Assembly: GCA_009602735.1 (NCBI GenBank)
Contig: WELA01001020.1
Coordinates: forward strand, 152,403-216,402
DNA: 64,000 nucleotides
Direction of reading: 5' to 3'
Source of the DNA: Mesotaenium endlicherianum
Lineage: Eukaryota
A program made the translations under genes and the position numbers. Below are positions 36,561-63,400 of the stretch, in pieces; positions within the stretch are counted from its first letter, which is position 1; each line of letters starts with the position of its first letter. Under the pieces are notes generated by a model. The model worked only from the letters and a program-made list of their open reading frames with translations, did not search any database and had not been told where the DNA came from.

Positions 36561-37012
36561 TTGGTAGGCAATGAGGCGCTGCTTGCACCCTCCTCAGCTA
36601 TATCCAGCTGATGTCTCGCTTCTTCAACCGTAAATGGGTAGGTGATATGCAAATCAGCGAGAGAAAGCAAAGGAGCATGCTGGATCCGATGTTCCACCAG
36701 GGCCTTCAGCTTCTCCAGCGAAAAACTAAATGTCTTACGCGTCCTAGGCCTCGCTTGTCGCAGCTGCGAGATCTCATTTTCATCCAGAGTGATCCAAAAA
36801 GTCTGAGGAAGCTTCCCAGCATTCCTTGGTACCAAACGGTCGTGATCTGCTCGCTCGGCAGCCGTTGCACCCACAGCCTTCTCAGGCGTCAGCTTCCCGC
36901 CTTTGCAGACGGTCTTTTCTGCAACATCTGCATCATAGTAGACATTAGGCGCATTTAGTTTTGCAACTTGAGCTTTCAACTCAACGATTTCCGCACTCAT
37001 AGCGTCATACTT

Positions 37013-38625: not shown

Positions 38626-39214
38626 ACAGCTGAATTTCTCCGGGTCCCCTTCCAGGTTGAACACGGGCAGCCTTCACAGGCCTCAATCCCCAACTGGCTT
38701 GGAAATTCTTGATAAATCACGTCTAAGCAGCTTAACAGGCAATGCCGGATCCAGAGAAAATCGCCCTTCAAGGCTTAACTTTCACAAGTTACTGCTTACA
38801 AAATTCTGATACTGCGCATCTATACTGGCCTGGTCTGAGCTCTTCCCACAACACCGCGCCTAAACAGTTCTTTACTGCTTGGCTGGGCTCACTTAGTTCT
38901 TCACTGAGAGCTTTACTTGTTAATACTACTCTTGCTATCAGCAATTTGACAATCGAGACTTCTGAGAACTTGGAAACTAACACAGTACTCACCATTTTAA
39001 GTGGCTTTCGCACGCTTGTGGTGTTCGACTCGAATATGTGCTAATGTCCTAACAAATTCTATTTTGCAGTTCTCTACCTAATTTACCAGCAAGATCCCCT
39101 CTTCGGAACTCCTGAGGTCTAACCTTTTTATGATACACTTGAGAAGAAATCTTCTAGCGTCGGCAGAAGCGTGGCGTCTCGGCTCTTATGTGGCCTTGGA
39201 AACTCCTTCTTCTT

Positions 39215-41281: not shown

Positions 41282-42545
41282 TGTAATGAATCAGTTAATG
41301 ATATATTTAATTGATTGCATATATAAAAATAACACCAAATAAGTATTATGTCTATATACTCACATGTGCGAGTTCATCTAAATGAATGTATGTCGATGAA
41401 ATGCGAGTTTACTTACTTTGTCAAAAAAAGTCAGCAGGATGACTTTTGTACCATAGTGTAGTTTGCTGACTTTGTTGAAAAGGTCAGCAGGATGACTTTT
41501 GTATCATAGTGTAGTTTGCTAAGATTTCTATATCAGTTATACATAGGATATAATATCAGTAGGTTGACACACAGTAAGCTCGCTTGATATTAGTCAATAT
41601 ACTTAGCTTCAGTACGCTGAGGATAGACATATTCATTTAGATTGTTATTTGTAGATTGGCACACGTGACCGAAGTATACTGAAAGTCGGGAGGTCGACTG
41701 AGACTCGGTAAACCGATGTCCTACCAGTGTGGTTAACTCCCGGGTAGGCGGAGCCGTCGTCAGTCAACTGAACAGTTAGGACTTCAGTCAACCGACCAAT
41801 TAATATGGCCGTTATACCTAGATCCGTGGGTCCCAACTTAACGGGTTTCCCACGAAACGGCGCACCTTGCGCCGTGGTCAACCAGGTGGTCACTAGGTAC
41901 ATAGCAGGCTGGGATCTCGTGGTCCCTCATTCTGGACAGTAGGCTTTACAGTCGGATTTCTACTTGCAAGTGATGTGTGCACTTTTTGGGTTCGTTCTAA
42001 TGACCAGCCTTCACAGAAATTGACATGGCTGCTTCGTTTGCGCTCCAAATGGAGCGAACTAGAACTTTTCGGAAAGGTCTTGTCAAGATGCATCCGTTGC
42101 CGTTAAGTTTGCGCAATTTGAAGTGGTATTGACAGAGTTATGCCCTTTGACATTTTGGGGTCACACAGTGGACAGATTCCATGGTTTTCGCACCTAAGTC
42201 AGTGGGATGTGTTTGAGCTACTTTATGGTCATCTGAATGAGAGCGCCTTTGTTATTCAGTCCCCTGATGTTGTGTATGTGCTTACACATGCTTGTATGCC
42301 TCGTAGGCAAGAGGTCAGGAGTTTCTAAAGGAGAAGCTCTAGTCCTCAAGCTCGCCTCTTTCTTGTGCCTTGTATTCGTGTGCAACTATGGCACACTACG
42401 ATAAGTGAGTCAAGGGCTATAGATGAGTAAACGGAATTCATTATAAGGGCGAAGATCGCTCCCTGATTTCACACGCTTCCACCTATCTCTGATCTTTTAT
42501 ATTTGAATGAAATATATTAATCTGTAATAAGCAAGATTCATTTCA
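41282..42545 (+). mobile_element. Solo LTR, family A, copy 3 (inverted relative to copies 1 and 2)
   Basis: TGTAATGAATC...GATTCATTTCA; flanks AAATT/GAATT match 4 of 5. Confidence 0.88.
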
Positions 42546-45500
42546 GAATTTTATCCCGAGATCAACCACTAAAAACGTAGGAATATGCTGCATCTTCCAA
42601 AACAATCATTGACTTGCAGATGGACAATATTGATTTCACTAAGCATGGTTTGAAATGTTTAAGAAAGTTTCTCACTATTTCCGGGTACTTAGCAATTTGA
42701 TGTGCTCGTTCAACTGTTGGCGCCGCGCTCCATTTGCCGGCAGTCACTCGTGCACTCTTGCAAACAGTCTTCTCTGCTATGACGACGTCGTAGTAGGATC
42801 TTGGCGCACTCATCTTGGCCATCTAAGCTTTAAGGAGAGCAAGTTTAAAACTCAAGTTGAAAGGGACAGAGTGCCCTAGTGGAAGCGTAGTAAGTCACGA
42901 GGAAAGGAACTAGTTGCAATCATACTAAAGAGTGCAGCGGCATATCACTAAGAAAGCTTAGGAAAATTATCCAACATTTTGAGTAGCAAGAAACTGCTCA
43001 CAAATGATGTAAGATGGAAGGCCTTGTGATTACAAACCCGTTGAAATTTACAGTAAGTGAAAACTGATAAGAAACAAACAAGTTATGCCTATTTATAATT
43101 TTCTGCCCAAGTGCTTCTCTCTAGGAGGAAGCTACAAAATTTCCTTAGTGTTTGTCAGATCGTCCCTTCCAGAATATTTGTGAGTAGGCCAGATCAATCT
43201 CATCTGACGTGTCGGGCCGAATTGACGTCCACATACATGTATCGACATTACTAGAATATTCTATCTTAGACGCGCTAGGCTAAATCGAAACTTTTAGGTA
43301 AATCGACCTAGTCGGCACTCCGCGTCAGCCGAACTTACGTGAAGGTTTGAGTTCACTCTTACGGGCCAGATCGCTCGATACTGTTGGTCAATGCGACGGT
43401 CGCGCTCACCGCAAATTAAGGACAGTCGTCAACCGACCTCAGAACTAAATAAACTTTGGAAAATCCATCTCTCTCTCAATACTTAACCAAATTCGATGAA
43501 CTTTATATCAAAATAACCACAAAAATGCACTCTAGAGTTCTATGCAATTAAAACATACTTTCAAGAAACTAAAAAATGCACCTTATAAACCTATGACCTT
43601 ACACAAGTCGTCATATTCTTGATTGCCTTTGCGGCAATCACTGTTTCCCTTGTCCTTCTTTTTCTCCTTGTCTGCCTCTGGTGTGGCAATATTAACACAT
43701 GGAGGCTCTCAGTGCGGGTTCTTGGACCAGCATTCAATTTCCAAATGGCCCTTCTTGCTGCAAAGTGCACATACATGTGCTTTGCTTGCAACCAATTGCT
43801 TTGCAAAAAGAAAAGAGCAGTCTTACCTTCTGAAAATCCTGCTTTTTGTAATTCAAATTATTACTCAAAGTTTGACCCATTCGCGTACTTGGCAACCTTT
43901 TTAGATGATCCATTCTTCTTTTTGAGAGAAAATAATTGGATCTGAGGCCTTAGGAGCAAAGAATTTATCGTTCTTATCTGGCGCCATTAACGTTCTTGAG
44001 ATCTCTTTGTACCATATCTTACCTTCCTCAATATATTTGCCGTTTTGACGACTTTGATGATTGACCAGTCGATTCCCCTTCGGGCCGAGTCCCAACGGGT
44101 TTGGTTGGACTTGCTCATCTGTTCCTTGTTCAAGGGCAACAAAAATTTGTCAGTAACAATCTAATGTTTATAGATTCCTACCTTATGGGCGAGATCTTCC
44201 AATTTGGACTAATACTCCATGACGATCTCATTCTTGCAACAATCAAAATGGACACGGCGATGTAATTGGATGCTGTGATCTTCAAGAAAACGTACCTCAA
44301 GCAATTTGAAGAATTGACGCAAGCAATAGATACGAGCTCAGCTGATCATCTCCAACTTCCATTTCCCCTTTGGTATCAAGTCGACGCTTCCGCATGATTG
44401 GATGCAACAGCTTTTTTTCTGGCCGCAGAAGAATCAGCATGCAATAAGCGCGAAGTATATTCTTAGCTTGTTTCAATAGAGTCGACAATTCGGTATAGAG
44501 TCCTAGCTGTCTCTCTTTGAAGCCTTCAACGCTCTCGTCTGTGATTGTGGTCATTTGAGTTGTTTCCAGATGCCTTAATACAATAGCCAAGTTATCTGTC
44601 AAAGCAATCGGTTTGTCACCGTGTCACAAAGGTCAATGGACCTCGTCACTTCTCCTGTTGACATAGCAGCTAGCTTGGCTTTTGCAACTCCTTTTTCAAG
44701 TTCTTGGTTCTTTATATTCCAGATTTCCCTTTTTGGAGTGAGTTGTTCATCCTTCCAGAATTGTTGATGAAGCAACAGAGCATCATTGAACACTTATTGA
44801 ATCAAATTGATGAATTCAACAGAGCACGAGCATAAGGCATCTTTCGGGATTTTCTCAAAAGAATCCACCCCGAAAAATCCTTCATCTTTTTTCATAAGTA
44901 GACGTATGAGAACTTATTAGCCGTTCAACCGTTGAAGCATTTTAGCGACAACTTAGCTCCGAGATTCTCATCTCTTTTATCATTAGTCATCTTGGTTGGT
45001 GACCAATACTACCTGACTTTGACCCAAGCGTTCCGCAATCTGCTTAACTATAATACAGAAGATCGCTTGCTATAATGAATCTCAGCGTTCGTAACTTCTT
45101 TCAACCATTCGTGACTCGTCTTCCAACGTTTGTGCATCTCACGAGTTGTCAGGTAGGTCAAGCGCCTTACTTTCTTGTGGACTTTCGCTTTCTTCATAAC
45201 CTTGCTCAAGCTCCACATGTTGGTACATTCTACCACTCTTCAACGCCATAAACAATTTAATTTTGTTTGCCCCCTTCTCAAAGTTAGCTGGTGCAGATTT
45301 TGCAGGTCCAATTTCCAATTTCCTAGAAAAATATTATTAAGCTGAGAAGCAATTTAATAAAAAATTATCAAAAATAGTGCAAAAACATATACTTCTATGC
45401 AGCTTCTTTATCCATGTTGATGTTGACGCGTTCACAAAAGTTGTAGTTTGCAAAAATCTGTTACGCAAATGTGGAAAGAGTCAGGATTTTGGTAAATCAA

Positions 45501-47116: not shown

Positions 47117-48270
47117 CTATTGTACACTACGTAATTTCAATGCAATCCATGCTTGGTAGATAGCATCAAACAAAGCATCCGTTTTATTGTCGACGACCTC
47201 TTGAGCTTCACTTGAGTTCTCTTTCTCTGTAGAAGTCAAAGAAATCCTCATGAGCTTTGCCGAAGTGTTGCTGCTCAGACCTATCCTCTTTGATGTCTTG
47301 ATGAGGTTCTGTTTGCTGAATCCCCGCTCACACATGGCTGTGTTGGTGGGAATAACTCTCATGAGCTGCATCAAAGCCACCATATCTGGACATTCTCGCA
47401 AGGCTTGAGAACCTTGCGAGAAGTTTCTCCATGCACCCTCCATAGATGGCTGACCCTCAGCCAAGCTTCTCATGAAAGACACAAAAGCAGGCAACTGCTC
47501 ACGGCACTGCTTGATCCTCAAGACCTTAGCCCCATCAGTCACATTCTCTGTGAGAGATCGTATCAATCTCTCAAACCATTCAAAGCACTTTTTCCTCCCT
47601 CCATCTGCTGCCGCAATATAGTGAGAGGGAACAAAGAGCTTGGCACTATTGAAGGACCCCAACATCCCTCTATCGTGCATTGAAGGAATCCACCAAGTTC
47701 CCGCACAAGAGAGCAACAACAGCCTTAACTGAGGCTAAGCTAGCTCGCTCTCAAGGGTTTGTTGCTCTCTGCATGCTCAGCTCATGCTCTATGCAAACAC
47801 CCTGGGAGTTCTGGGATACAAGTACGGGACTATCACCATTGATCGTATCCTGCAGAAATGCCCTCAAATGTGTACTCCCCTCAGCGCATTCTTCTCCTTC
47901 AATGAGATAGCTAACTTTGATGAAGTCAATGAGCTGCTCAATTGATGCCCCTATCTCAACAAGATTGACTTGATCAGCTTGGAAAAGCTTGTTCGAGACG
48001 TCAATCTTTGGAAGGACATCTCGCAAGAGTTTTAGAAGCATAACAGCTCCCAGTTGCACACCCTTGCATACAACTTGTCCTTTCCAGAACTCCTCAATAT
48101 TGTAAGGATGGCAAGCAACACTCTCCCCAATCGTTCCACAGCAGCCCCTCTTGACAGCCAACGGACGGAGAAGAAACGCTTTGGACTCAACACAGAAAGC
48201 TTCATCTCTTATTGTATCTCCTTGAGAAGGTTCAGACGCTTAGGAGATCGCCCCACAAACTCAGTGATCT
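47117..48270 (-). pseudogene. hAT-superfamily transposase, C-terminal part (frameshifted)
   Basis: RFFSVRWLSRG, DVLPKIDVSNKLFQ and the hATC dimerisation motif IPTNTAMCERGFSKQNLIKTSKRIGL. Acceptor ttgcAG at ~48270; the upstream (CA)-rich intron is cut by the LTR at 48531. Confidence 0.8.
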
Positions 48271-49364
48271 GCAAAGTAATAACATTCACCCAACATTGAA
48301 CACAATGTCCCAATGTGTGTGTAGAAGTTTGTGTGTAGTGTGTGTGTAGAAGTTTGTGTGTAGGTGTGTGTGTGTATGTGTGCCTAGACCTCACACACAA
48401 AATCCCATATCCTAAAACTTGAGCTACAAGTAGCCAATGTGTGTGTGTGTATGTGTGCGTGCGTGTGTGTGTGTGTGTTTGTGAGTGTGTGTGTGTGTGC
48501 ATGCAAGTTAAATGTACAACACTCAAACGTTGAAATGAATCGACTTACCAATTAGGCGATTAACAATTAATAAAGATCTTTATATCAGCAAACAATCTTT
48601 ATGGTATTTTCCGTTATTTGAATTAACAGCAAAGGACCACACACTAGCAGTGAATAATACTTGTAAGTCAAATGCAAGCAAACTAGCATCAATTATGCAA
48701 TCAGTAAACTCATACATAAGCAAGGTTGGAAGACAGTGCGTATCAATGGCTTCTAGCCTTGGATTCAGATCTCTCTGAGTAAGCTGCACAAGAGAGTTGG
48801 CCTCGTTTCCGAATGCCAAACTTGAGAGCAATGCCTAGCATATGTAGAAGGAATGAGTTTACTGTTCAACGGCCAGTGCGATGGCACCGCCTACCCGGGA
48901 GTTAACCACGTTGGTAGGACCTCGGTTAAGCAAATCCACCGCCATCTCCCATCATCCCGAATCGCCATCCATCGTAGGGATGTCATCTGGCCATTAATCT
49001 AGCATACCACACTTAGATGCATATCAAGGCAGTTCGCTGCTACCGAGTACGGAAGTCAGCTGGCTGTCAAAGAATGTGTCAGCAAGCTGACTTAAGTTGG
49101 CATCAGCCTGCTGCTTCCGGCTGAGTCCTTAAAGTGATAATTATGTAAAGTCCAGCAGACTCAATACTACATGAAGTTCAGTAGGCTGAACATGATTAAC
49201 AATTATATTTAAAATGAATATTATATCTACTAATATACTGATTCATTACAATTCCTCCAACTTAACTTGTTGTTGCCTCGACAACATTAAACTGCATAAG
49301 TTTTTGGTCAGGTAACTGAACCTGACCAGCCTCCCCCACTGGCTGCTTTTTCAGCCTGTCACCT

Positions 49365-51531
49365 AGGGGATTGTTCCTGGGGCTTCAGGATCAGGGGACT
49401 AAGATCTGGACCTAGATCTGGACAGCCCTCTAGGTTTGTCAGCTGGCCTTCTGAAGAACCCCGTTTGTTCTAAAGTTGGACCTCGAGGAGAACGAAGGAT
49501 GGTAGCCTGCTCTTCAACCACTTGGGTGTTGATCCCCACATGGACAGGCATTCCAGTAGGGTGCTGAAATACATTGGCAAGAGGTACATGCCCCTGAGCG
49601 AAGGGAGAGGCCGGCATACCTCTGGCCACCCCGCGTGTCCCTCTTCTGGCACCCCTGTCCTCTGGAGATTTCTGCCTTTGTCTGCTGCCAAGTACAGTCA
49701 GATGAGCTTCTTCCCCTGCTTGGGGAGGTGGGCTGGGGGAGCGAGTGCGCAATTCAGTTACTTCTATGGCCGGAGTCAAATGCCATATTCCTGATCTCGG
49801 ACCCTGAGGAAGCCCTGCTCTTGCCTGCCCCTGGGTGTCCTGAGTACCAGGTCCTGATGCTTCTCCTCTGCCTTGTTCTTCTTCCTCATCCTCCTCATCT
49901 TCCTCCTCTGAGAGGGTAGGAGTCTCGTCCACTAAGTCGTCCTGCTCCCTTGTAGACATGGAGTAGTCTACTGACCTCCCTTTCTTAGGGCGCGCCGGAG
50001 GTTGCTTGGCCTTTAGCCTGCTGATATCTATCCGGCTTGCATTCTTTGCCCATTTGACAAAAGCATGCTTTCCCTTAGAGAAGTAGTCTCTCCCCCTCCT
50101 CCTGTGCTCTTTGGTCTCTGCATTCATATTGCTCAGGCAGCCATTCAGCTTGGGGTCCCAAGGGGCAATGTGAGGTGGTAGGATGAGGTAGCCGTCCATG
50201 TAGTGAAACAGATAGATAAAGTACTTAGTAGAACAGAATACTTTATCTATTCAAGACAAGGATCTTTGAACACAAGTGGTAGCTTCTTTGAAAGAGAGAT
50301 GGCTTCTTGAAAGTTTAAGTACAAGAGTGATTCTCCCATGTCTTTCTATGTTCTAGCCCTTGTTTATATACTTGCTACATAAGTAATTTCTAGGAAGGTG
50401 TATGTTGATGTGTTGGCACCCAACACATCCCAAAACTTGCCACCTCTTTCTAGAATAATGTACACATGTCCTTTTGACCTAAAAATGGCACATCTGACTT
50501 TTGCCACATGGAGTTCTACTAGGTCTTTCCTCTAACTTCGAAAGTGCCTTGGAAGGTTCAAAGGACATGAACCAAGTTACTAGAGTACCTATTCACACTT
50601 GACTCCACACAATACTACTCCAAATATATTTGAAAACATTAAAATATATGCAAACTAATATATAATAACTCAAATCACTACAGTCCAGGCCATCGTGAAA
50701 GTCATCCGGTTGGGCTCGATCACACTCCTGCTTTTTGTTTGTGACGGTCATCTACGTCCAGTCTGTTGGCTGTTGGTAGTACTGGGGTCCATGCTTAGCC
50801 TTCCTCAGTTTACACGGGAACCAATGGGGAGAGAACATCTGCTGTCCTGCTTCCCTGGCCAAGTACTCCCAGCTCCTCCTCTCAACTTCATTGTAAGCTG
50901 GCAGTAGTGTGAGGTAGATAATCGTATCCGTAAAGCTATCGGGCCGCATGCTCACCATCCTGATGAGTCTCTGATCTCTCACTATTCCCGGTATTGGGAC
51001 CGGCTTGTTCTCTGAATCATATGCAAGATACCGGGCCTGCTCTGCTGTATAGCCCACCATCTTGGCATAATCTTCGTAGAGTACCACACCAGTGTGTGTC
51101 TCAATGTACCTATCCAGTGCTGCAGCTCCTTGCCTCTGTAGCAGTGTTGTTTGTTCCAGCTTGTTGATCTCTTGGGCTGCCAGCAATGCTTCCTTCAGCT
51201 TATCAAAGTTTTGGCCACCCACCACAGTATACCTGTAAGTGGCCAAGCTCTTATGCCTGTCCGCTTCAGCCTTTTTCCTTCTCTCCTCCTCTGCCGCTGC
51301 CGCTTCTTTTTGTTGTTTCTTCTGTCTCTCCTCCTCAGCTTTCCTGAGGTTTTCTGCTTCTTGATCCTTCTTCCTCTGTGCCTCTTTTGCCGTCTCTTGT
51401 TGTCTGCGGACCCTTTCTTGCTCTCTTCTGGTGAGGGACGTTGCCGCCAGCTCCTTCTGGTATTGCTCCATTGTCCTCCTGACTTCTTCTGCCTTGCGCT
51501 TTCTGTCCTCCTTTTGTGTGGTGGGAGCCAT
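49365..51531 (-). pseudogene. Disrupted copy of the family-B extra gene (intron-less 5' leader)
   Basis: Close homolog of 53207-54883; TAG stops at 50752-50754 and 49399-49401; split by the solo LTR at 50199-50682. Confidence 0.88.
50199..50682. mobile_element. Solo LTR (family C), 484 bp
   Basis: TGTAGTGA...TCACTACA terminal inverted repeat; TSD GTCCA (50194-50198 / 50683-50687). Confidence 0.92.
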
Positions 51532-53093
51532 CCTTACAGGTTGATTGCTAGGAGTTGACGTAGTTGCGGTGCGCTAGACATAAACGAGGTCCTTTTTCTT
51601 CCGCCCAAGGTGCTTGATGTGGGCCAGGCTGTCCCATCTGTCACTATGCTGACACTTAGGATCTTAGGATTCACGAATTTGTCCCTTTTTCGCTCTCGCA
51701 CACTTACTGTCATTACGAAACTGTCCCTTTCTCGCTTTCGCACACTAGCTGTCATATATTTTCCCCTCCAACTTAAATGGAGACAGGACCTCCTGTCACC
51801 TTCTCGTGTCAACTGAAATGACCGTTATGGAGGGGCTCTAGCCGCCCGAAGGTGGAACCGTTTCCACGCCCCTTTGGCATTGGTCAAATGGTCCTTAAGT
51901 TCCCAAGTGTCCCCAGAGGCATCGTAACCTTTCCATCGAATGAGGTACTTCATGACATATTTAGACGATCGACGGACCGAGCGCGCGTCTAAAATCTCCT
52001 CAACCTCATATTCCTCAGGGTCACCGTCCCGGACAGCTGGGACCGGTCCCGGTTGGACAGGTAACCGACCCGTGAACAGTGTGTCCCTGTGATGAATCTG
52101 TTCATTACTTATTTAATTAATTGCATATATAAATATAACACTAAATAAGTATTATGTCCATATACTCACATGTGCGAGTTCATCTAAATGATGTATGTCG
52201 ATGTAATGCGAGTTTACTTACTTTGTCAAAAATGTCAGCAGGATGACTTTTGTATCATAGTGTAGTCTGCTGACTTGTTGAGAAGGTCAGCGAGATGACT
52301 TTTGTATCATAGTATAATTTGCTGAGATTTGTATATCAGTTATATATATGAAATGAATCGACTTACCAAATAGGCGATTAACAATTAATAAAGATCTTTA
52401 TATCAGCAAGTAATCTTTATGGTATTTCCGTTAACTAGTTAAACGGCAAAGGACAATACACTAGCAGGGAATAATACTCGTTAGTCAAATGCGAGTAAAC
52501 TAGCATCAATGATGCAAATTAGTAAACTCATACATAAGCAAGGTTAGAAGACAGTGCGTATCAATGGCTTCTCGCCTTGGATTCAGAGTTCTCTCAGTAA
52601 GCTGTACAAGAGAGTTGGCCTCGTTTCCGAATGCCGAACTCGAGAGCAATGCCTAGCATATGTACATGGAATGAGTTTACTGTTCAACGGTCAGTGCGAT
52701 GGCACCGCCTACCCGGGAGTTAACCACGTTGGTAGGACCTCGGTTAACCAAATCCACCGCCATCTCCCATCATCCCGAATAGCCATCCATCATGGGGATG
52801 TCATCTGGCCATTCATCTAGCAGGTGGTACTTAGATGCATATCAAGGCAGTTCGCTGCTACCGAGCACGGAAGTCAGCTGGCTGTCAAAGAATGTGTCAG
52901 CAAGCTGACTTAAGTTGACTTCAGCCTGCTGCTTTTGGCCGAGTCATTAAACTGATACTTACGTAAAGTTCAGCAGACTGATTACTAACTAAAGTTCAGC
53001 AGATTGACTACTAACTAAAGTCCAGCAGGCTGAACTACATTAACTATTATATTTAAATGAATATTATATCTACTAATATACTGATTCATTACA

Positions 53094-53108
53094 ATCCCTC
53101 CAACTTAA
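53094..53108 (-). promoter_or_regulatory. Polypurine tract abutting the 3' LTR
   Basis: TTAAGTTGGAGGGAT immediately before TGTAATG. Confidence 0.75.
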
Positions 53109-53206
53109 CTTGTTGTCGCCTCGACAACATTAAACTGCAAATGCTTTAAATAAAGAAACTGACCCTGACCAGCCTCCCTTACTGACTATCTTTTCAGCCT
53201 GTCACC

Positions 53207-54883
53207 TTAAGGGGTGGTTCCTGGGGCTTCAGGATCAGGGGACGGAGATCTGGACCTAGATCTGGACAGCCCTCTAGGTCTGTCAGCTGGCCTTCTAAAG
53301 AACCCGGTTTGCTCTAAAGTTGGACCTCGAGGAGAACGAAGGATGGTAGCCTGCTCTTCAACCACTTGGGTGTTGATGCCCACATAGACAGGCATTCCAG
53401 TAGGATGCTGAAATACATTGGCTAGAGGTACATGCCCCTGAGCGGAGGGGGAGGCTGGCATACCTCTGGCCCACCCGCGTGTCCCTCTTCTGGCACCCCT
53501 GTCCTCTGGGGATTTCTGCCTGTGTCTGCTGCCCAATACAGTCAGATCAGCTTCTTCCCCTGCTTGGGCAGGTGGGCTGTGGGAGCGAGCGCGGGCTCCA
53601 GTTGTCGCCATAACGGGGATCACATTCCAAACACCTGATCGTGGTTCTTTAAGAAGCGCCCCTACCTGTCCCTGGGTATCCTGAGTACCTGCTGCTGATG
53701 CTTCTCCTCTGCCTTGTTCTTCTTCCTCATCCTCCTCATCCTCCTCCTCGGAGAGAGTAGGGGTCTCGTCCACTAAGTCGTCCTGCTCCCTAGTAGACAT
53801 GGAGTAGTCTACCGACCTCCCTTTCTTAGGGCGCGCTGGAGGTTGCTTGGCCTTCAGCCTACTGATATCTATCCGGCCTGCATTCTTTGCCCATTTGACA
53901 AAGGCATGCTTTCCCTTAGAGAAGTACTCTCTTCCCCTCCTCCTATGTTCCTTGGTCTCTGCATTCATATTGCTCAGGCATCCATTCAGCCTGGGGTCCC
54001 AAGGGGCAATGTGAGGTGGTAGGATGAGATAGCCGTCTAGGCCATAGTGGAAGTCATCCGGTTGGGCTCGGTCACACTCCTGCTTCTTATTTGTGACGGT
54101 CATCCACCTCCAGTCTGTTGGCTGCTGGTAGTACTGGGGTCCGTGCTCAGCCTTCCTCAGTTTACACGGGAACCAGTGGGGAGAGAACATCTGCTGTCCT
54201 GCTTCCCTGGCCAAGTACTCCCAGCTCCTTCTCTCAACTTCATTGTAAGCTGGCAGGAGTGTGAGGTAGAATACCGTATCCTTAAAGCTATCGGGCCGCA
54301 TGCTCACCATCCGGATGAGTCTCTGATCTCCCACTATTCCCGGTATGGGGACCGGCTTGTCCTCTGAATCATCTGCGAGATACCGGGCCTGCTCTGCTGT
54401 ATAGCCCACCATCTTAGCATAATCTTCGTAAAGGACCACGCCGGTGTGTGTCTCGATGTACCTGTCCAGTGCTGTAGCTCCTTCCTTCTGTAGCAGTGTT
54501 GTCTGTTCCAGCCTGTTGATCTCCTGGGCTGCCAGCAATGCTTCCTTCAGGTTATCGAAGTTTTGGCCACCCACCACAGTATACCTGTAAGTGGCCAAGC
54601 TCTTCTGTCTGTCCGCTTCAATCTTTTTTCTTTTCTCCTCTTCTGCCGCTGCCGCTTCTTCTTGCTGTTTCTTCTGTCTCTCCTCCTCAGCCTTCCTGAG
54701 GTTTTCCGCTTCCTGATCCTTCTTCCTCTGTGCCTCTTCTGCCGCCTCTTGTTGTTTGCGGACCCTTTCTTGTTCTCTCCTGGTGAGGGACGTCGCCGCC
54801 AGCTCCTTCTGGTATTGCTCCATTGTCCTCCTGGCTTCTTCTGCCTTGCGCTTTCTGTCCTCCTTTTGTGTGGTGGGCGCCAT
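53207..54883 (-). CDS. Unknown extra protein (558 aa) between pol and the 3' LTR
   Basis: Uninterrupted ORF, conserved in the second copy. The start MAPTT at 54883 lies 1 nt after an intron acceptor and matches the start in the older copy (51531). Confidence 0.85.
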   Translation of the reverse strand: MAPTTQKEDRKRKAEEARRTMEQYQKELAATSLTRREQERVRKQQEAAEEAQRKKDQEAENLRKAEEERQKKQQEEAAAAEEEKRKKIEADRQKSLATYRYTVVGGQNFDNLKEALLAAQEINRLEQTTLLQKEGATALDRYIETHTGVVLYEDYAKMVGYTAEQARYLADDSEDKPVPIPGIVGDQRLIRMVSMRPDSFKDTVFYLTLLPAYNEVERRSWEYLAREAGQQMFSPHWFPCKLRKAEHGPQYYQQPTDWRWMTVTNKKQECDRAQPDDFHYGLDGYLILPPHIAPWDPRLNGCLSNMNAETKEHRRRGREYFSKGKHAFVKWAKNAGRIDISRLKAKQPPARPKKGRSVDYSMSTREQDDLVDETPTLSEEEDEEDEEEEQGRGEASAAGTQDTQGQVGALLKEPRSGVWNVIPVMATTGARARSHSPPAQAGEEADLTVLGSRHRQKSPEDRGARRGTRGWARGMPASPSAQGHVPLANVFQHPTGMPVYVGINTQVVEEQATILRSPRGPTLEQTGFFRRPADRPRGLSRSRSRSPSPDPEAPGTTP

Positions 54884-54884
54884 C

Positions 54885-54987
54885 CTGCACATGTAACCAG
54901 GGCACAAGTTAGTAGGATATGGACCTTTGTCATAGGGATTGCAGGAAGTATGTTAGTATTTAGTATAGTGGCTTCGCTGCTGTTTAC
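54885..54987 (-). other. 103-nt GT-AG spliceosomal intron in the leader of the extra gene
   Basis: AAG|GTAAAC donor, TACTAAC branch site (54914-54908), TGCAG|G acceptor; exactly absent at 51532/51533 in the older copy. Confidence 0.88.
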
Positions 54988-55150
54988 CTTACAGGATGAT
55001 TGCTAAAAGTTGACGTAGTTGCGATGCGCTACACATAAACGTATGAGTGTGTTTTTATCGCTCTCGCTCACTAACTGTCATATATTTTCCCCTCCAACTT
55101 AAATGGAGACAGGACCGCCTGTCACCTTCCCGTGTCAACTGAAATGACAG

Positions 55151-58100
55151 TTATGGAGGGACTCCAGCGGCCCGAAGGTGGAACCGTGTCAACGCCCCTT
55201 TGGCATTGGTCAAGTGGTCCTTAAACTCCCAAGTGTCCCCAGAGGCATCGTAACCCTTCCATCGAATGAGGTATTTCATGACATATTTAGACGATCGACG
55301 GACCGAGCGAGCGTCTAAAATCTCATCGACCTCATATTCCTCAGGGTCGCCGTCCCGGACAGCGGGGACCGGTCCCGGTTGGACAGGGAACCGACCTGTG
55401 AACAGTGTATCACCTTTGATGTACGGTTCCAGGAAGGAGACATTAAAGACCGGGTGCCCCTTGTATTCAGCTGACATGTTCAGTTTGTAAGCATTCTGAC
55501 CGACACGACGGACCACCGAATATGGACCGACCCAGACAGGGCCAAGCTTTTTCTTGACCACACCAGGGAGGTACAGGTGCTGAGAATGCAGTTTGACTAA
55601 ATCCCCCTTGGAAAATGTCAGTTCCCGACGGTGTTGATTAGCGTATTTTTGTTGGTTTTCTTGGGCCGTGTGCAAGTTTCGTTGGACTTCTGACAGGGTG
55701 TCAGCAAACTCCTGAGTTAACTGGAGGGAGACCGGGTTGTCAATCCCTTCAGGGTGAGTTAAAGATTCCCCTAGCACATCTAGAGGAGACTTAGGGACTC
55801 TACCCAGGCTGAGTTCAAAAGGAGTTTTGCCCGTTGACGCGTGCACCGCACTGTTGACCGCAAACTGAATTTGAGGCAACAGGTCATCCCAATTATCTTG
55901 TTTTTGGTTAATATATGCTCTCAGCACCTCCTGCAGAACTCGGTTAGTTCTTTCAGTCTGCCCATCAGTCTGAGGGTGGTTTGCTGTGCTGAGCAGCTGT
56001 TTGACTCCCATTAACCCCATTAAAGCTCTCCAGAACTTAGAGGTGAATTTTGAGTCTCTGTCTGAGATGATATTAGAAGGGAGCCCATGTTGGCATACTA
56101 CATGGTTGTAAAACTGTCTCGCTGTTTCGAGTGCAGTCACTTTGACAGTTGTGGGGATAAAAATGACCATTTTTGTCAGTTTATCCACGACTACCAGTAT
56201 TGAATCATGCCCGTTGGCAGTTCTTGGTAGTGAGACCACCCAGTCCATGGATATAGTTTCCCAGCGTCCCGCTGGGATGGGTAGCGGTTGCAAGAGACCT
56301 CCGGGTGGTGTGTGCCGAGACTTATTTCTCTGACACTGGTCACAGGACTTGACATATTTCAAGACCTCCCGGGGTAACCCCTCCCAATGATAATGTTTTG
56401 CCAGTTTGCCAACAGTTTTGGCCTGCCCCAAATGTCCACCCAGGAGACTGTCATGAGCTTGACTCAGTAAGAGAGACCTTATTTCCAAATTATTAGGAAT
56501 GACCAGCTTCAGCCTGCCTGAAGTGGTTTCAGACACCCAGACCCACCCCTTGAGCTTATACCCGAGTGCAGTAGCACGACACACAGCAGTAGTGGGGCTG
56601 GGCTCAAATGTTGGGTCAAAAAGGTAGGCTTTCCTAAGTTGTTCAAGGAAGGACTTTTTCACTTTTAGTGAAGTGAGTGCACACAGGACTTTATCTACAG
56701 TATGCTGACTAAAGTTCCTTTCTTGCAAGTCAGGTCTTCTAGAGAGTGCATCAGCAGGATTCAACTTCCCTGGTTTGTAGTCGATCTGGACTTGGAACTG
56801 CTCCAGCATCTGGCTCCAGCGGTTCTCCCTCCTCGACAGCTTGGACTTCTTCTGAAAGTGGGTCAGAGCTAGATGATCTGTAATCACCTTAAAAGCTTTA
56901 CCATGTAAGTATGCTCTCCACTGTTTGAGTACATGAATGATAGCTAGCAGCTCTTTATCATGCACTGAGTAATTAATCTCCGCTGGATTAAATTTCATAG
57001 ACTCATACAACACAGGATGCCACTCCTGCCGTACCTTACCATCCTTTGTGGTTTTGTCAGCAGGCTGCAACAAAATAGCACCCATGGCAAAATCAGAGGC
57101 ATCAGTAACCACCTGCACCGGTTTGCTGGGGTCATACACGGCTAGCACTGGGGCAGAACAAAGGGCATCTTTAAGGGTCTGGAAGGCAGCCTGCTGCTCT
57201 TCCCCCCACACATACCCGATGTCTTTCTTAGTAAGGTCAGTCAGTTTACTGGCCTTTGTGGAATAATTCTCAATAAATCTCCTATAGTAGTTAGCCAACC
57301 CGAGGAAGGATCTAACTTCAGAGACAGACTGTGGTACTGGCCAGTCCCTTATGGTCTGGACTTTCTTAGGATCCACACTGATGCCCTCTTTACTGACAAC
57401 GTGGCCTAAGAATTCAATACTTTCCTTAAAGAAATCACACTTGCTCATTTTAGCATACAAGTGATTTTTCCGCAGAGTGTCCAGCACTTTCTTTAAGTGT
57501 TCAGTGTGCTGAGCTTCATCTTTAGAGAAAATTAAAATATCATCCAGGAAAACTTGCACAAACTTATCCAAATAAGGTCTGAAAATGTCATTCATAGCAC
57601 CCATAAAGGTAGCAGGAGCATTAGTCAGTCCAAATGGCATCACGTTGAACTCATAGTGTCCATAACGTGTGCGGAAAGCAGTCTTGTGTTCATCCCCCTC
57701 AGCAATTCTGATTTGATGATAACCACTCTTGAGATCTATCTTACTGAACACCTTAGCGCCAGACAGGGTATCAAGCAAGTCCTCGATTCTGGGTAAAGCA
57801 TACTTGTTCTTTACTGTAATTCTGTTCAGGGCTCTGTAATCCACACACATCCGCATACTGCCATCCTTTTTCTTAACAAATAGGATAGGTGCGCCGTACG
57901 GTGATTTACTGGGAGAAATGTAACCATTTTCCTCCAGCTCTGCAATCTGTGTTTTCAACTCCTCACTCTCCAAATAAGACAAGCCATACGTGCGTTGCCA
58001 GGGTGGCTGGCTACCAGGTAATAAATCAATCCTATGATCTACTTCCCGCTTAGGGGGTAGTCCTGGAGGCATATTAAACACATCCGTGTACTGAGCAACA

Positions 58101-58960
58101 ATGTTTGCAGCAGTAGGGTGTTCCGGAGGGTGTACCTTTTTCTCAACCACTTCTTCAGGTTGAGGAGGTACCTCTCTTAGCAGCAGACAGAACATTCTGT
58201 CTTCCTTCTGGTTCCAGCTTTTGACGAACTCCATTGCATTCAGCAACTTGCATCCTTCTGGAAGCCTCTTCTTTTCCTTCATTTGCCATCCACACAGGAC
58301 AAGAGGAAGAGCACTGGTGGGTGCCAAGTCAGTCTGCCCATCACTGGCTCCTCTCACTTTAACTGTACCTCTGCTCCAACACACTTCAGCTTGATGTCTA
58401 TTAAGCCAGGACCTGCCTAGCACGAGATCATAAAAGCCAGTGTTGAGTACCTCAAATGTAAGCGTTTCAGTTAGAACTGCAATGCCAGAACCTAACTGGA
58501 CCTCAATAGGCTTGGTTATAACTCCTCCCGGGATACTTGAGGCATCTCCAAGGAATATTTTTCTATTCCCTTGGGTGACAGTAGGCAGCCTTAGCCGCTT
58601 AACTAAGTCCTTGTGGATAAAAGTATGTGACGCCCCTCCGTCAACAAATGCCCTCACCTTCCTACCTGCAATCATGCAATGCAGTAGGATAGGGGGGACT
58701 GTCTTTTCCTGACTTTCGCATTGTTCTCCTGACGTAGCAAAGAAATGTTGGACATCAGGTGGAACAAGAGCATCCAGAGTGTGCACTCTCTGGACGTCTA
58801 TATTGCTGATGGTCTCCTTTATCTGGTTGTCAGGCATGCATAGTGAATCCAGTTCAGCAGGACCCATAATACCTGCTACGAGGGCAGCTAGTGACGACTC
58901 ACTATCTCTAGCATCCTCACAGTCAGTAGACTGGATTACTGACTGTTGCTGTCTTTTAAA
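55151..58960 (-). CDS. pol: Pol (PR-RT-RNase H-integrase-chromodomain), entered by -1 frameshift from gag
   Basis: [35 protein letters not shown] and DDE integrase, GPY motif, chromodomain EYEVDEIL...YLIRWKGYD...TWE. The frame is open upstream of the ATG at 58867 into the gag overlap. Confidence 0.95.
58919..58960 (-). promoter_or_regulatory. -1 programmed ribosomal frameshift signal
   Basis: T TTA AAA in the gag frame (58960-58954), 7-nt spacer, perfect 10-bp stem ACAGTCAGTA/TACTGACTGT with an 8-nt loop. Confidence 0.85.
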
Positions 58961-60414
58961 GGCTGGTCTTTTCTCTCGACCTTAGGCAGGTGCTTGACCG
59001 GACACTGTTCTCTGTAGTGGCCTTTCTGCTGACAATGGTAGCAAGTAGATTTTGCTGAGGCTGGTCTCGGCTTAGTCCTACCACCACCCCTTCCATAGCC
59101 ACCTCGAGAGGGACCACCTCTACCTCTAGACTGAATAGCATTGTACTCATACTCATATTCATCACCCTGATTATCCTCAGCCTGGTCTCCTTCAACTGCA
59201 TTGTAGGAACCGTGGGGCTTTTTGACAATCTTAGACACCAAAGCGTTACTCTGGCGCTTGTGATTGAACTGCTGCTGATCCCAGGCGTCAGCATCCTGGA
59301 TCAAGTCAGCCAGTTTCTCATACTTTTTCTCAGCAAAATGACCAGAGACCTCGGATTTCAAGCCATACCTGAAGTATGCTATCCTATACCGTTCTGGCAA
59401 ATCAGGCTGCTTCATCATGTTCTCTTGGAACTTTTGAGCAAACTCAGCAACTGAAGTGGTCTGCTTCAGTGTCAGGGAGATCATCGCATAGATAGCTTTC
59501 TCCTGCTGGTTGATGACATCAAACTTCTCATGCAACTTCTCGACAAACTCTACCCACGTAGGGTCACCGAGTTGCCGAGCCTTACGCTCTTCCTTCCAGT
59601 AAAGCCACCAGTCTGCGGCACTGCCTTTCAGTAGCGCATCGGTGTGCCTGACCTTCTCGTAATCTTGCAGTTCTGGGTAGTTCTCCAGCCACTGCTCAAC
59701 ATCCGCGAGAAACTTGATCAGGTAATATTTTCTGTTTCCCTCAGGATCATAGCCCTGGGGAGGTTTCGGCTTGGGCTTACTAGGCCCTCGGCCACCACCA
59801 CTAGTGGTGTGAGACCCCAGTTGGTCTCTGTCCCGGAGTAGGGACATTATGATTCTTTTGTCCTCCTGCTGGGACTGATACATGGTCGCCATTTGCGACT
59901 GCATCTGAACAAACAATGCTCCCAAGTCTACATTTTGGGGTGGTAGATTAGCAGATGCAGCAGCAGCATTGGCATCCACTCGCTGAGTAGTGTCCTCAAC
60001 AGTCCCTCTTGCTCCTGCAGCAGCAATTTCTGCCGCATTCAGCCGGTCACGTATTTGACCTAGGGGTACATTGAGTTGTACGGCAGGAGGTGGGTTCAGA
60101 ACATTGGCCCTTGATGCCATAAGTTCTTCAACAGTGCGCTCGTCAGCTGGCTGTCCTTCCCTCCTTTGTATATCTTCAGCGGCCTTTGCTACTTGTTCAG
60201 CTTCTAGTCTGGCTATCTCCTCCTCAGCTTGCTGAGCTGCGACTGAGGCAATAGCAGCTGCCTCATCTGCAGCCTCCCTAGCTGCAGTATCCGCTACTGC
60301 TTCCGAATAGGTACGGTTTCCCGCTACATGGCTTTCCGCCTGGTTTTCGACATTCTCGTTATCCTGGTTCTCCATGTCTCGGGAGTTGCTAGTTTGAGAC
60401 CTTGTCCTTACCAT
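58936..60414 (-). CDS. gag: Gag (492 aa) with CCHC zinc knuckle
   Basis: MVRTRS start, capsid motif LKGSAADWW..., knuckle [14 protein letters not shown]. Confidence 0.93.
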
Positions 60415-60435
60415 ACAAAGAAGACTGTGATAACT

Positions 60436-60447
60436 GCTCCGATACCA
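60436..60447 (-). promoter_or_regulatory. Primer-binding site (initiator tRNA-Met type)
   Basis: TGGTATCGGAGC, 1 nt after the 5' LTR; consensus is TGGTATCAGAGC. Confidence 0.9.
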
Positions 60448-63400
60448 CTGAAATGAATCGACTTACCAAATAGGCGATTAACAATTAATAAAGATCTTTA
60501 TATCAGCAAGTAATCTTTATGGTATTTCCGTTAACTAGTTAAACGGCAAAGGACAATACACTAGCAGGGAATAATACTCGTAAGTCAAATGCGAGTAAAC
60601 TAGCATCAATGATGCAAATCAGTAAACTCATACATAAGCAAGGTTAGAAGACAGTGCGTATCAATGGCTTCTCGCCTTGGATTCAGAGTTCTCTCAGTAA
60701 GCTGTACAAGAAAGTTGGCCTCGTTTCCGAATGCCCAACTCGAGAGCAATGCCTAGCATATGTACATGGAATGAGTATACTGTTCAACGGTCAGTGCAAT
60801 GGCACCGCCTACCCGGGAGTTAACCACGTTGGTAGGACCTCTGTTAACCAAATCCACCGCCATCTCCCATCATCCCGAATAGCCATCCATCATGGGGATG
60901 TCATCTGGCCATTCATCTAGCAGGTGGTACTTAGATGCATATCAAGGCAGTTCGCTGCTACCGAGCATGGAAGTCAGCTGGCTGTCAAAGAATGTGTCAG
61001 CAAGCTGACTTAAGTTGACTTCAGCCTGCTGCTTTTGGCCGAGTCATTAAACTGATACTTATGTAAAGTTCAGCAGACTGATTACTAACTAAAGTTCAGC
61101 AGACTGACTACTAACTAAAGTCCAGCAGGCTGAACTAAATTAACTAATATATTTAAATGAATATTATATCTACTAATATACTGATTCATTACATATATCA
61201 GTCATATATAGGATGTAATATCAGTAGGTTGACATATAGTAAGCTCTCCTCATATTAGTCAGTAGACGTAGCTTCAGTACGCTGAGGATAGATACATTCA
61301 TTTAGATTATTATTTGTAGATTGGCACATGTAACCGTAGTATACTGAAAGTCGGAAGGTCGGCAGAGATTCGGTAAACCGATGTCCTACCAGTGTGGTCA
61401 ACTCCTGGGTGGGCGGAGCCGTCGTCAGTCAACTGAACAATTAGGACTTCAATCAACCGACCAATTAATATGGTCGTTATACCTAGATCCGTGGGTCCCA
61501 ACTTAACGGGTTTCCCACGACACGGCGCACCTTGCGTCGTGGTCAACCAGGTGGTCACTAGGTACTTAGCAGGCTGGGATCTCGTGGTCCCTCATTCTGG
61601 ACAGTAGGCTTTATAGTCGGATTTCTACTTGCAAGTGATGTGTGCACTTTTTGGGTTAGTTCTAGTGACCAGCCTTCACGAAAATTGACATGGCTGCTTC
61701 GTTTGCGCTCCAAATGGAGCGAACTAGAACTTTTCGGAAAGGTCTTGTCAAGATGCATCCGTTGCCGTTAAGTTTGCAAAATTTGGAGTAGTATTAACAG
61801 AGACATGCCCTCTGACAGTTTGGGGTCACACAACGGACAGATTCCATGGTTTTTGCACCTAAGTCAGTGGGATGTGTTTGAGCTACTTTATGGTCATCTG
61901 AATGAGAGCGCCTTTGCTATTCAGTCCCCTGATGTTGTGTATGTGCTTACATATGCTTGTGTGCCTGGTAGGCAAGAGGTCATGAGTTTCTAAAGGAGAA
62001 GCTCTAGTCCTCAAGCTCGCCTCTTTCTTGTGCCTTGTATTTGTGTGCAACTATGGCACACTACGATAAGTGAGTCAAGGGTTATAGATGAGTAAACGGA
62101 ATTCATTATAAGGGCAAAGATCGCTCCCTGATTTCACACGCTTCCACCTATCTCTGATCTTTTATATTCAAATGAAATATATTAATCTTGAATAAGCAAG
62201 ATTCATTTCAGTCCCCTTTGGTGTAAGGTTCTAGGAAGGAGACATTAAAGACCGGGTGACCCTTGTATTCTGCTGACATGTGCAGTTTGTAAGCATTCTG
62301 ACCGACACGGCGCACCACCGATATGGATCGACCCAGACAAGACCAAGCTTTTTCTTGACCACACCAGGGAGGTACAGGTGTTGAGAATGTAGTTTGACTA
62401 AATCGCCCTTAGAAAAGGTCAGTATTCGACGGTGCTGATTAGCGTACTTTTGTTGGTTTGCTTGGGCTTTGTACAGCTTCTGTTGGACTTCTAACAGGGC
62501 GTCAGCAAACTCCTGAGTTAACTGGAGGGAGATCGGGTTGTCAATCCCTGCAGGGTGAGTTAAAGACTCCCCTAGGACATCTAAAGGAGACTTAGGGACT
62601 CTATCCAGGCTTAGTTCAAGAGGAGTCTTGCCCGTTGACGCGTGCACCGCATTGTTGACCGCAAATTGGATTTGAGGTAACAAGTCATCCCAATTATTTT
62701 ATTTTTGGTTAATATAGGCTCTCAGTACCTCTTGCAGAACTCGATTAGTTCTTTCAGTCTGCCCATCAGTCTGAGGGTGGTTTGCTGTGCTGAGCAGCTG
62801 CCTGACTCCCATTAACCCCATTAAAGCCCTCCAGAACTTAGAGGTGAATTTTGAGTCTCTGTCTGAGATGATATTAAAGGGTAGCCCATGTTGGCAAACT
62901 ACATGGTTGTAGAACTGTCTCGTTGTTTCGAGTGCAGTTACTTTGACAGTTGTGGGGATGAAAATGACCATTTTTGCCAGTTTATCCACAACTACTAGTA
63001 TCGAATTATGCCCATTGGCAGTTCGTGGCAGTGTGACCACCCGGTCCATGGATATTGTTTCCCAGCGGCCAGCTGGGATGGGCAGCGGTTGTAAGAGGCC
63101 CCCCGGTGGTGTGTGCCAAGACTTATTACTGGTCACAGGACTTAGCGTATTTCAAGACCTCCCAAGGTAATCCCTCCCAATGATAATGTTTTGCCAGTTT
63201 GCCAACAGTTTTGGCCTGCCCCAAATGCCCACCCAGTAAACTGTCATGTGCTTGACTCAATAAGAGGGACCTTATTTTCACGTTATTAGGAACGACCAGC
63301 TTCAGCCGGCCTGAAGTGGTTTTAGTCACCCAGGCCCCTCCCTTAAGCTTATACCCGAGTGCAGTAGCACGACACACACCAGTAGTGGGGTTGGGCTCAA

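What the first reader, a model, noticed from the sequence alone, without database searches (positions are those of the whole stretch)
53207..54883. Chromovirus carries a conserved, unknown 558-aa third gene downstream of pol
Seen: an intact sense ORF between pol and the 3' LTR, also present in the older copy. Many differences between the copies are synonymous (e.g. GTG GTC CTT TAC vs GTG GTA CTC TAC). The protein has an E/K/R/Q coiled-coil N-terminus, an aromatic-rich central region (YRYTVVGG...WFPCKLRK...WDPRLNG), a basic NLS-like PPARPKKGR, an acidic tract and an SRSRSRSPSP tail. I see no signal peptide or TM segment, so it does not look env-like. Established: chromoviruses normally encode only gag and pol. 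Inference: a selected nuclear accessory factor, possibly anti-silencing or acting on RNA processing/export. I do not recognise the family.
Basis: partly seen in the sequence, partly recalled or inferred. Interest (0 to 1): 0.85.

Follow-up and report, generated by a model that had tools for sequence, protein, structure and literature searches.

The report
Orphan third gene in algal retrotransposon
A young, intact jumping gene of the green alga Mesotaenium carries, behind its two usual genes, a third gene whose protein is conserved as strongly as the element's own enzymes but resembles no catalogued protein, and which likely makes a nuclear helper that would let the element's RNA escape host control.

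Summary
The ORF is real: 53207-54883, minus strand, 558 aa, sense to gag-pol, in an intact chromovirus (LTRs 1.6% apart). A neighbouring host exon is 100% identical to a Mesotaenium endlicherianum protein. Against the older copy dN/dS is 0.20 (95% CI 0.13-0.29), core 0.13, pol 0.19. The older ORF3 is broken (two stops, 484-bp insert). No homologue was found among 1.8 billion representatives, Pfam, PDB or the ESM Atlas; the folds were unusable; it is not env-like.

New here: (1) a 103-bp GT-AG intron with TACTAAC branch points ends one base before the ATG and is exactly absent from the older copy; (2) a second, conserved polypurine tract follows pol, where sister elements diverge into TG-starting sequence, so ORF3 likely sits in a cassette added behind the ancestral 3' end; (3) RNA reads show a diverged in-frame relative around PPHIAPWDPRLNG.

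Expression is weak and no splice-junction read was seen. 3' sense extra ORFs are known in Tekay chromoviruses (18%) but are not listed for Chlamyvir or Tcn1. Best guess: a Rev/CERV-like RNA regulator (0.3); anti-silencing is nearly as likely. New variant of a known kind.

The parts
60449..61193 (-). 5' LTR of the young element (745 bp, TG..CA)
   Evidence: 12 differences in 745 from the 3' LTR
60436..60447 (-). Primer-binding site, tRNA-iMet type (one position off the recalled consensus)
   Evidence: sequence; consensus recalled
58936..60414 (-). gag, 492 aa (Ty3 capsid, zinc knuckle)
   Evidence: Pfam PF19259, PF00098
58954..58960 (-). T TTA AAA slippery heptamer where the gag and pol frames overlap; predicted -1 frameshift
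   Evidence: function inferred
55151..58867 (-). pol from its first ATG (the frame is open further upstream): PR-RT-RH-IN-chromodomain, aromatic cage residues present by inspection
55054..55148 (-). Conserved non-coding block after the pol stop, holding an internal PPT-like tract (55085-55102) followed by TATATGACAG, a likely decayed LTR start
   Evidence: 6 differences in 95 vs a synonymous rate of 0.198, P=2e-4; sister elements diverge at 55086-55089
54989..55036 (-). 15-codon upstream ORF kept in both copies; its stop lies 2 nt before the ORF3 ATG in the intron-less form
   Evidence: function untested
54885..54987 (-). 103-bp GT..AG intron with TACTAAC at -74 and -30; exactly absent from the older copy
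53207..54883 (-). ORF3, 558 aa: charged helix 1-95, conserved core 96-350, basic/acidic stretch 351-400, variable tail 401-558
53834..54598 (-). ORF3 core (aa 96-350), dN/dS 0.13; includes the PPHIAPWDPRLNG motif and the start of the basic helix (aa 308-356, 17 K/R in 49)
53094..53111 (-). 3' polypurine tract next to the 3' LTR
52349..53093 (-). 3' LTR of the young element; 4-bp TATA target duplication, in a TA-rich site
49363..51531 (-). ORF3 of the older copy, broken by two stops and an insert
50199..50682 (.). 484-bp TG..CA insert (solo-LTR-like) in the older ORF3, 5-bp duplication GTCCA
48531..49250 (-). 3' LTR of the older copy (88% identical to the young LTR)
52088..62211 (+). Solo LTR of a second family (52088-52348 plus 61194-62211) that holds the young element and itself interrupts pol of the older copy (5-bp duplication GTCCC)

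Best explanation
ORF3 is a conserved accessory gene of a Mesotaenium chromovirus that likely encodes a nuclear protein which would bind the element's own RNA and help the unspliced genome RNA leave the nucleus, as Rev or the nematode CERV protein do. Shown: the gene is intact in a young copy, is as constrained as pol, has an intron ending one base before its ATG, and both intron-containing and intron-less forms exist as DNA copies. Inferred: ORF3 is made from a spliced subgenomic RNA, started either in the LTR-like remnant behind pol or in the 5' LTR; the cassette was added behind the ancestral pol-PPT-LTR end; the basic helix (aa 308-356) serves RNA binding and nuclear import, and the RS-like tail contacts splicing or export factors. 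Untested: localisation, RNA binding, and any effect on export or transposition. Confidence is about 0.9 that it is a selected protein and about 0.6 that it is a nuclear accessory factor of some kind; 0.3 applies to the RNA-export mechanism.
For: dN/dS 0.20 over 555 codon pairs, core 0.13, aa 351-400 0.07, against pol 0.19 over 588. Four of five control frames give 1.25-1.50; the antisense frame sharing third positions gives 0.28 but has 22 codon pairs with a stop. The intron has a GT donor, TGCAG acceptor and two TACTAAC, and is exactly absent from the old copy. A contig in run X4 keeps the intron with 5 substitutions and 1 gap inside it, GT and CAG intact, and at most 2 changes in about 440 coding bases. 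So RNA with strong splice signals was copied unspliced, the problem CERV solves (PMC10309623, abstract and section 15). Basic helix 17 K/R in 49 aa; 13 RS/SR dipeptides. A diverged in-frame relative appears in RNA run X14 (10 and 12 loose-end reads, read by eye). Sense-only reads lie over the 5' part of ORF3 in stranded run X17 (depth up to 20).
Against: No homology to Rev, CERV or any RNA-binding family. The older copy has no intron here, yet ORF3 was constrained along the path joining the copies, so this intron alone cannot explain the gene. The RS-like tail lies in the least constrained part (dN/dS 0.38), and the older copy has a stop at its end. No junction read in 5 raw RNA runs; ORF3 depth is essentially 0 in X10 and at most 2.3 in X16. 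The X17 signal lies on the low-complexity E/K region at an 80% likeness cut-off and may be cross-mapping. No strongly structured RNA element: lowest z -2.6 among 22 windows. Only weak NES-like patterns. The deletion is flanked by an AGG repeat, so an insertion or a microhomology deletion is not formally excluded. Sister elements that seem to lack the cassette are also present in the DNA runs.
Confidence: 0.3

Rival explanations
1. ORF3 is a chromatin-level anti-silencing factor or transactivator (works like VANC or Tat): it would bind the element's LTR or internal DNA, oppose methylation and raise transcription.
For: NLS-like basic patch next to a strongly conserved acidic tract (18 D/E in aa 351-400, dN/dS 0.07). 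CpG observed/expected is about 0.4 in gag, pol and ORF3, consistent with methylation pressure. The element is barely expressed and pol reads are largely antisense in the stranded runs X10 and X16. Other extra-ORF proteins are nuclear (Grande GENE23, PMC7264820; predicted for Tekay 5' aORF, PMC11728184).
Against: No Pfam family matched the core and no recognisable DNA-binding fold was obtained. No tandem target-motif arrays were looked for or noticed. CpG depletion applies to the whole element, with or without such a factor.
Confidence: 0.25
2. ORF3 is a particle or integration co-factor that would bind Gag or integrase for nuclear import, particle trafficking or target choice.
For: Constraint equal to pol; long charged helix usable as a spacer; NLS-like patch. 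The one target duplication seen is 4 bp, whereas most chromoviruses make 5 bp.
Against: Integrase already carries a chromodomain with cage residues. Apparent ORF3-less sisters share about 85% of the pol end. No binding test was run.
Confidence: 0.15
3. ORF3 is a passenger: a captured host or foreign-element gene whose constraint is inherited and which no longer serves the retrotransposon.
For: Cassette-like position behind a second PPT, a host-like intron, and higher GC3 than gag and pol (0.57 vs 0.50 and 0.49). RNA is scarce.
Against: dS between the copies is the same in ORF3 (0.23) and pol (0.22), so the constraint acted while both travelled together. No host homologue was found, although Mesotaenium proteins are in the searched collection. 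An 83%-identical ORF3 relative occurs in DNA contigs.
Confidence: 0.07
4. ORF3 is an env-like gene for cell-to-cell spread.
For: Env position and orientation; splice acceptor directly before the ATG; a donor-like GGTAAGG directly after the gag ATG.
Against: No signal peptide, best hydropathy window 0.73, 0 sequons, 3 Cys.
Confidence: 0.03

Closest known systems
Chromoviruses of non-seed plants and algae (Chlamyvir, Tcn1, Galadriel; REXdb, PMC6317226)
   Same: LTRs, PBS, PPT, gag, PR-RT-RH-IN and a chromodomain with aromatic cage. The best-scoring named pol hits are from Closterium and Haematococcus.
   Different: The REXdb table lists no extra ORF of any kind for Chlamyvir (44 elements), Tcn1 (1500), Galadriel (270), Reina (708) or CRM (736). 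This element has a 558-aa 3' sense ORF, an intron and a second PPT.
Tekay chromovirus extra ORFs (eORF-3'F in 18% of 782; 5' aORF in sunflower and grasses)
   Same: Extra ORF of unknown function in a chromovirus; for the sunflower 5' aORF, a predicted NLS, helices and disorder (PMC11728184 passages).
   Different: Tekay is confined to seed plants. No sequence match surfaced. The REXdb eORF sequence files could not be read, so a direct comparison was not made.
CERV of C. elegans Cer1 (PMC10309623) and retroviral Rev
   Same: Proposed logic: accessory protein from a spliced RNA, nuclear, acting on unspliced genome RNA.
   Different: No sequence similarity found. CERV has a G-like domain and a C4 Cys loop; ORF3 has 3 Cys. 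Function is shown for CERV and only inferred here.
Retand/Grande/Ogre/Athila/SIRE extra ORFs (TRP28, plant mobile domain, Athila ORF1, env-like)
   Same: Located between pol and the 3' LTR and conserved like pol; Grande GENE23 is nuclear with its own promoter (PMC7264820).
   Different: Those are non-chromovirus or copia lineages and often antisense. None of their Pfam domains hit ORF3, and it has no transmembrane segment.

Membership tests
Chromovirus (Ty3/gypsy) | LTRs with TG..CA ends, PBS, PPT | tested here: met
Chromovirus (Ty3/gypsy) | gag followed by PR-RT-RH-IN order | tested here: met
   Pfam
Chromovirus (Ty3/gypsy) | chromodomain at the integrase C-terminus | tested here: met
   PF00385 E=2e-8, 34.5 bits vs cut-off 25.1
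A named chromovirus clade (Chlamyvir, Tcn1, Galadriel) | RT/IN phylogeny with reference elements | not tested
   No labelled reference set was available. Features are mixed: tRNA-Met-type PBS (unlike most Tcn1), overlapping gag/pol frames (unlike most Chlamyvir), one 4-bp duplication (38% of Galadriel)
env-like ORF | sense ORF between pol and the 3' LTR | tested here: met
env-like ORF | signal peptide and transmembrane helix | tested here: not met
   best 19-aa hydropathy 0.73, charged N-terminus, 0 sequons
Known plant extra-ORF families (PF04195, PF10536, PF03078, PF20167) | match to the family profile | tested here: not met
   The only Pfam hit at E<=0.1 is Borrelia_P83 on aa 6-97, 14.9 bits vs cut-off 33.6
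Rev/CERV-type RNA export regulators | sequence homology | tested here: not met
   0 hits at E<=0.001; none in Pfam or PDB
Rev/CERV-type RNA export regulators | made from a spliced element RNA | tested here: inconclusive
   intron present or absent between DNA copies; no junction reads at low depth
Rev/CERV-type RNA export regulators | structured response element in the genome RNA | tested here: inconclusive
   lowest z -2.6 in 22 windows over 53081-55300; the rest of the element was not scanned
Rev/CERV-type RNA export regulators | nuclear, binds genome RNA, needed for export | not testable with these tools
   needs imaging, CLIP and mutants
VANC-type anti-silencing proteins | profile match to a VANC/MAIN-related domain | tested here: not met
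   no Pfam family matched the core; the VANC-MAIN link is from PMC13547354 passages
VANC-type anti-silencing proteins | sequence-specific loss of methylation on cognate copies | not testable with these tools
   needs methylomes with and without ORF3

The most novel reading that the evidence does not exclude
A chromovirus in the algal sister group of land plants has become a 'complex' retroelement. It turned its old 3' LTR start into the front end of a new spliced gene, kept the old polypurine tract as a second internal signal, and uses the product, a protein family with no known fold, as a Rev-like switch between spliced and unspliced RNA. This would be a plant-lineage counterpart of Rev and CERV that arose independently.
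Probability: 0.2. Interest if true: 0.8.

Novelty: new variant of a known kind. Interest (0 to 1): 0.5.

Why it matters
Extra ORFs of plant LTR retrotransposons are common and almost all of unknown function (PMC6317226, PMC7264820). This one is a clean test case: an intact young element in a model alga, an orphan protein constrained like pol, natural variants with and without the intron, and probable sisters without the cassette as built-in controls. If it regulates RNA export or silencing, it adds a new protein family to the host-transposon conflict and shows how an accessory gene can be grafted on behind a chromovirus's old 3' end. No function has been shown yet.

Tried and rejected
No whole genome is held for this window, so there is no genome-wide copy count or multi-copy dN/dS.

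Homology searches with the core (aa 92-350): 0 of 1960 word-sharing candidates passed E<=0.001 (lengths 306-977 only); 0 hits among 1.84 billion representatives; PDB sequences gave 1 hit at E=1; NCBIfam 0; PHROGs best E=0.19; metagenome contigs 0 of 69 pattern matches confirmed. ESM Atlas best scores were 0.81 and 0.88 with about 110 of 256 features shared, within chance range. The core against 120 pol relatives gave best E=0.048. The N-terminal helix and the tail (aa 351-558) were scanned only against Pfam and NCBIfam.

AlphaFold2 gave mean pLDDT 34.9 (one sequence) and 38.9 (three rows). Foldseek on these models found nothing at E<=0.001, which is uninformative. A pol query in metagenomes gave 2 short distant loci of 36 candidates (33-41% identity, 1.4-1.6 kb), which were not used. 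The run search listed no RNA holder on record. No complex prediction was run.

Literature: searches found no description of this element or of a 3' sense ORF in an algal chromovirus. The library lacks most subscription papers. Steinbauerova 2011 was seen only as cited by others, and Chlamydomonas REM1 (antisense ORF3 with PHD and chromodomains) is recalled, not found. REXdb supplements 1 and 3 (per-element table, sequences) were too large to read and could hold related eORFs.

Rejected: chance ORF, antisense shadow frame, env.

Full report
Element and host. The window's right end holds a nest of LTR elements. A young element at 52349-61193 (minus strand; LTRs differ at 12 of 745 sites) has intact gag and pol with protease, RT, RNase H, integrase and chromodomain, a tRNA-Met-type PBS, a slippery heptamer at the gag/pol overlap and a PPT. 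It sits in a solo LTR of a second family, which itself interrupts pol of an older copy of the first family (48531-52094, continuing from 62212 past the window end). An exon of a host actin-depolymerising factor gene at 26134-26394 is 100% identical to a protein labelled jgi/Mesen1, next best 74-79%. I read that label as Mesotaenium endlicherianum, a zygnematophyte alga (label meaning recalled). The best-scoring named pol hits are from Closterium and Haematococcus, at about 35-49% identity.

ORF3 is 558 aa, sense to gag-pol, far beyond shuffled controls (maximum 359 codons in 2000 shuffles). Nei-Gojobori counts between the young and older copies give dN/dS 0.20 (555 codons, 77 silent and 58 replacement changes, bootstrap CI 0.13-0.29). 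By region: aa 1-95 0.18, aa 96-350 0.13, aa 351-400 0.07, aa 401-558 0.38. For comparison, pol RH-IN gives 0.19 and dS is the same in both genes (0.23 and 0.22). Four alternative frames give 1.25-1.50; the antisense frame sharing third positions gives 0.28 but contains 22 stop-bearing pairs. The older ORF3 is dead (two stops, 484-bp insert), so part of dN is probably neutral decay and the true constraint is stronger. This rests on two copies only. Of the 14 ORF3 variants shown by read laying (of 284 rows, most hidden, biased to the tail), 8 are silent and 6 are not.

No relatives in catalogues. The core had no hit in the 5.8-billion word search, the 1.84-billion representative search, Pfam, NCBIfam, PHROGs, PDB or metagenome contigs, and only chance-level Atlas neighbours. 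Structure predictions failed. Relatives do exist in sequencing runs. A 1081-nt contig of DNA-type run X4 aligns over two ORF3 stretches at about 83% identity, with 4 gap positions in one. In RNA run X14, 10 and 12 reads align only at 53982-54019 (PPHIAPWDPRLNG); read by eye, their loose flanks are stop-free in ORF3's frame and keep 3 of 10 residues upstream and 3 of 9 downstream. So ORF3 is a family with a conserved motif, within this organism at least.

(1) The young copy has 103 bp (54987-54885) starting GTAAAC, ending TGCAG, with TACTAAC at -74 and -30; the older copy lacks exactly these bases. A contig in X4 retains the segment with 5 substitutions and one gap inside it, leaving GT and CAG intact, against at most 2 changes in about 440 coding bases. 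The simplest reading is an intron lost by reverse transcription of a spliced RNA. An insertion or microhomology deletion at the AGG repeat is not excluded. (2) A 15-codon upstream ORF is kept in both copies. (3) Behind the pol stop lies a 95-bp block with only 6 differences (P=2e-4 against the silent rate), containing a near copy of the 3' PPT. At exactly this point (55086-55089) three X4 contigs, one X5 contig and reads of X14, X16 and X17 stop matching. All 4 distinct loose ends shown continue with TG after the purine run, as an LTR would, whereas both window copies have TA. Two of the X4 contigs run on for about 390 and 460 nt with no ORF3 match listed, but 93 pieces were not shown. I infer that sister elements end pol-PPT-LTR and that ORF3 is a cassette added behind that old end. 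The alternative, a longer spacer with a more diverged ORF3, is open. Contig depth falls from about 80-100 at the pol end to mostly 14-50 over ORF3 in X4 but not in X5, and is not a copy number.

Expression. Five raw RNA runs from three studies with the same species label were laid, 6-24% of each run read. ORF3 depth was essentially 0 in X10, at most 2.3 in X16, 0-2 in X13 apart from two bins toward the 3' end (up to 19), 0-21 in X14 (the peak from diverged copies), and up to 20 sense-only in X17 over the low-complexity N-terminal region, where cross-mapping is possible. Depth over the intron and the bases upstream was at most 0.08 in X14 and X17. No junction across the intron was listed. Reads on the pol end are mostly antisense and come from sister elements. 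Family-level transcription of ORF3-like sequence is therefore seen, but transcription and splicing of this copy are not shown.

Mechanism. Composition argues against env and for a soluble, probably nuclear protein: a charged N-terminal helix, a 255-aa aromatic core, a basic helix with 17 K/R in 49 residues ending in PPARPKKGR, an acidic tract and an RS/SP-rich tail. The one clue specific to this element is that RNA with strong splice signals was copied unspliced into DNA, which is the problem that CERV solves for Cer1 (PMC10309623, abstract and section 15). I therefore commit to a Rev/CERV-like role at 0.3, with anti-silencing or transactivation at 0.25 and a particle or integration role at 0.15. 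Against the RNA reading: the intron-less lineage kept ORF3, the RS tail is the least constrained part, and no structured RNA element or convincing export signal was found.

Comparison with what is known. Extra ORFs are a known class: REXdb counted 3372 Ty3/gypsy elements with one, in 314 unrelated groups (PMC6317226 passages). Its lineage table gives 3' sense ORFs in 18% of Tekay chromoviruses and none for Chlamyvir, Tcn1, Galadriel, Reina or CRM (supplement). Reviews describe sense 3' ORFs as env-like and antisense ones as possibly regulatory (PMC7264820, parts 1 and 2 of 3; PMC11963269 passages). A sunflower study treats chromovirus aORFs as 5' (PMC11728184 passages). PMC9289625 and PMC13547354 were seen as passages only. 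An earlier scan note reports a much larger 3' ORF in a chromovirus-like element of another genome; it is unchecked and not independent support. Verdict: the element is a chromovirus; ORF3 belongs to no tested family; the whole is a new variant of a known kind, with the function open. Interest 0.5.

Noticed in passing
window 32403-40477 (minus strand): Second LTR family (1.26-kb LTRs) whose internal region holds a gag-like frame with zinc knuckle, a weak protease-like stretch and a C5 cytosine methyltransferase (FAGLG, GFPCQ, ENV and RAR motifs; TIGR00675 E=9e-9, PHROG methyltransferases E=9e-11, best PDB hit M.HaeIII), then about 400 unknown codons. I saw no RT, RNase H or integrase by reading the frames. 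It is broken by stops and frameshifts. Its LTR ends are nearly the same as those of the ORF3 element and a 75-bp LTR segment is 82% alike, but its solo LTR shows a 5-bp duplication. It may be a non-autonomous methyltransferase-carrying element; it differs from KnitGypsy-Dnmt3, where the enzyme is in the Pol polyprotein (PMC5890265 section 9). It deserves its own follow-up.
   Followed up: partly
window 41282-42545 and 43609-44366: A further family-B LTR in inverted orientation, and a decayed gag-like stretch 66% identical to 37003-37749.
   Followed up: no
window 50199-50682: 484-bp AT-rich insert with TGTAGTG..CACTACA ends and a 5-bp duplication; no other copy in the window. Solo LTR or MITE of a third family.
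   Followed up: partly
window 60406-60414: The only GT(A/G)AG donor-like site in the first 150 bases after the 5' LTR lies directly behind the gag ATG. Joining it to the ORF3 acceptor would not be in frame, and no reads show it.
   Followed up: partly
window 47117-47734 (minus strand): Frame ending in a CERGFS motif that recalls the hAT transposase dimerisation domain (recalled; Pfam gave no hit); probably a DNA transposon remnant.
   Followed up: no
window 54963-56500 and the LTRs, runs X10 and X16: Stranded RNA reads over the 3' part of pol are mostly antisense and come from sister elements; many LTR reads run into flanks of other loci.
   Followed up: partly
window 28944-29299: Decayed LTR pieces with similarity to both LTR families (72-82%), hinting at shared ancestry or exchange between them.
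   Followed up: no
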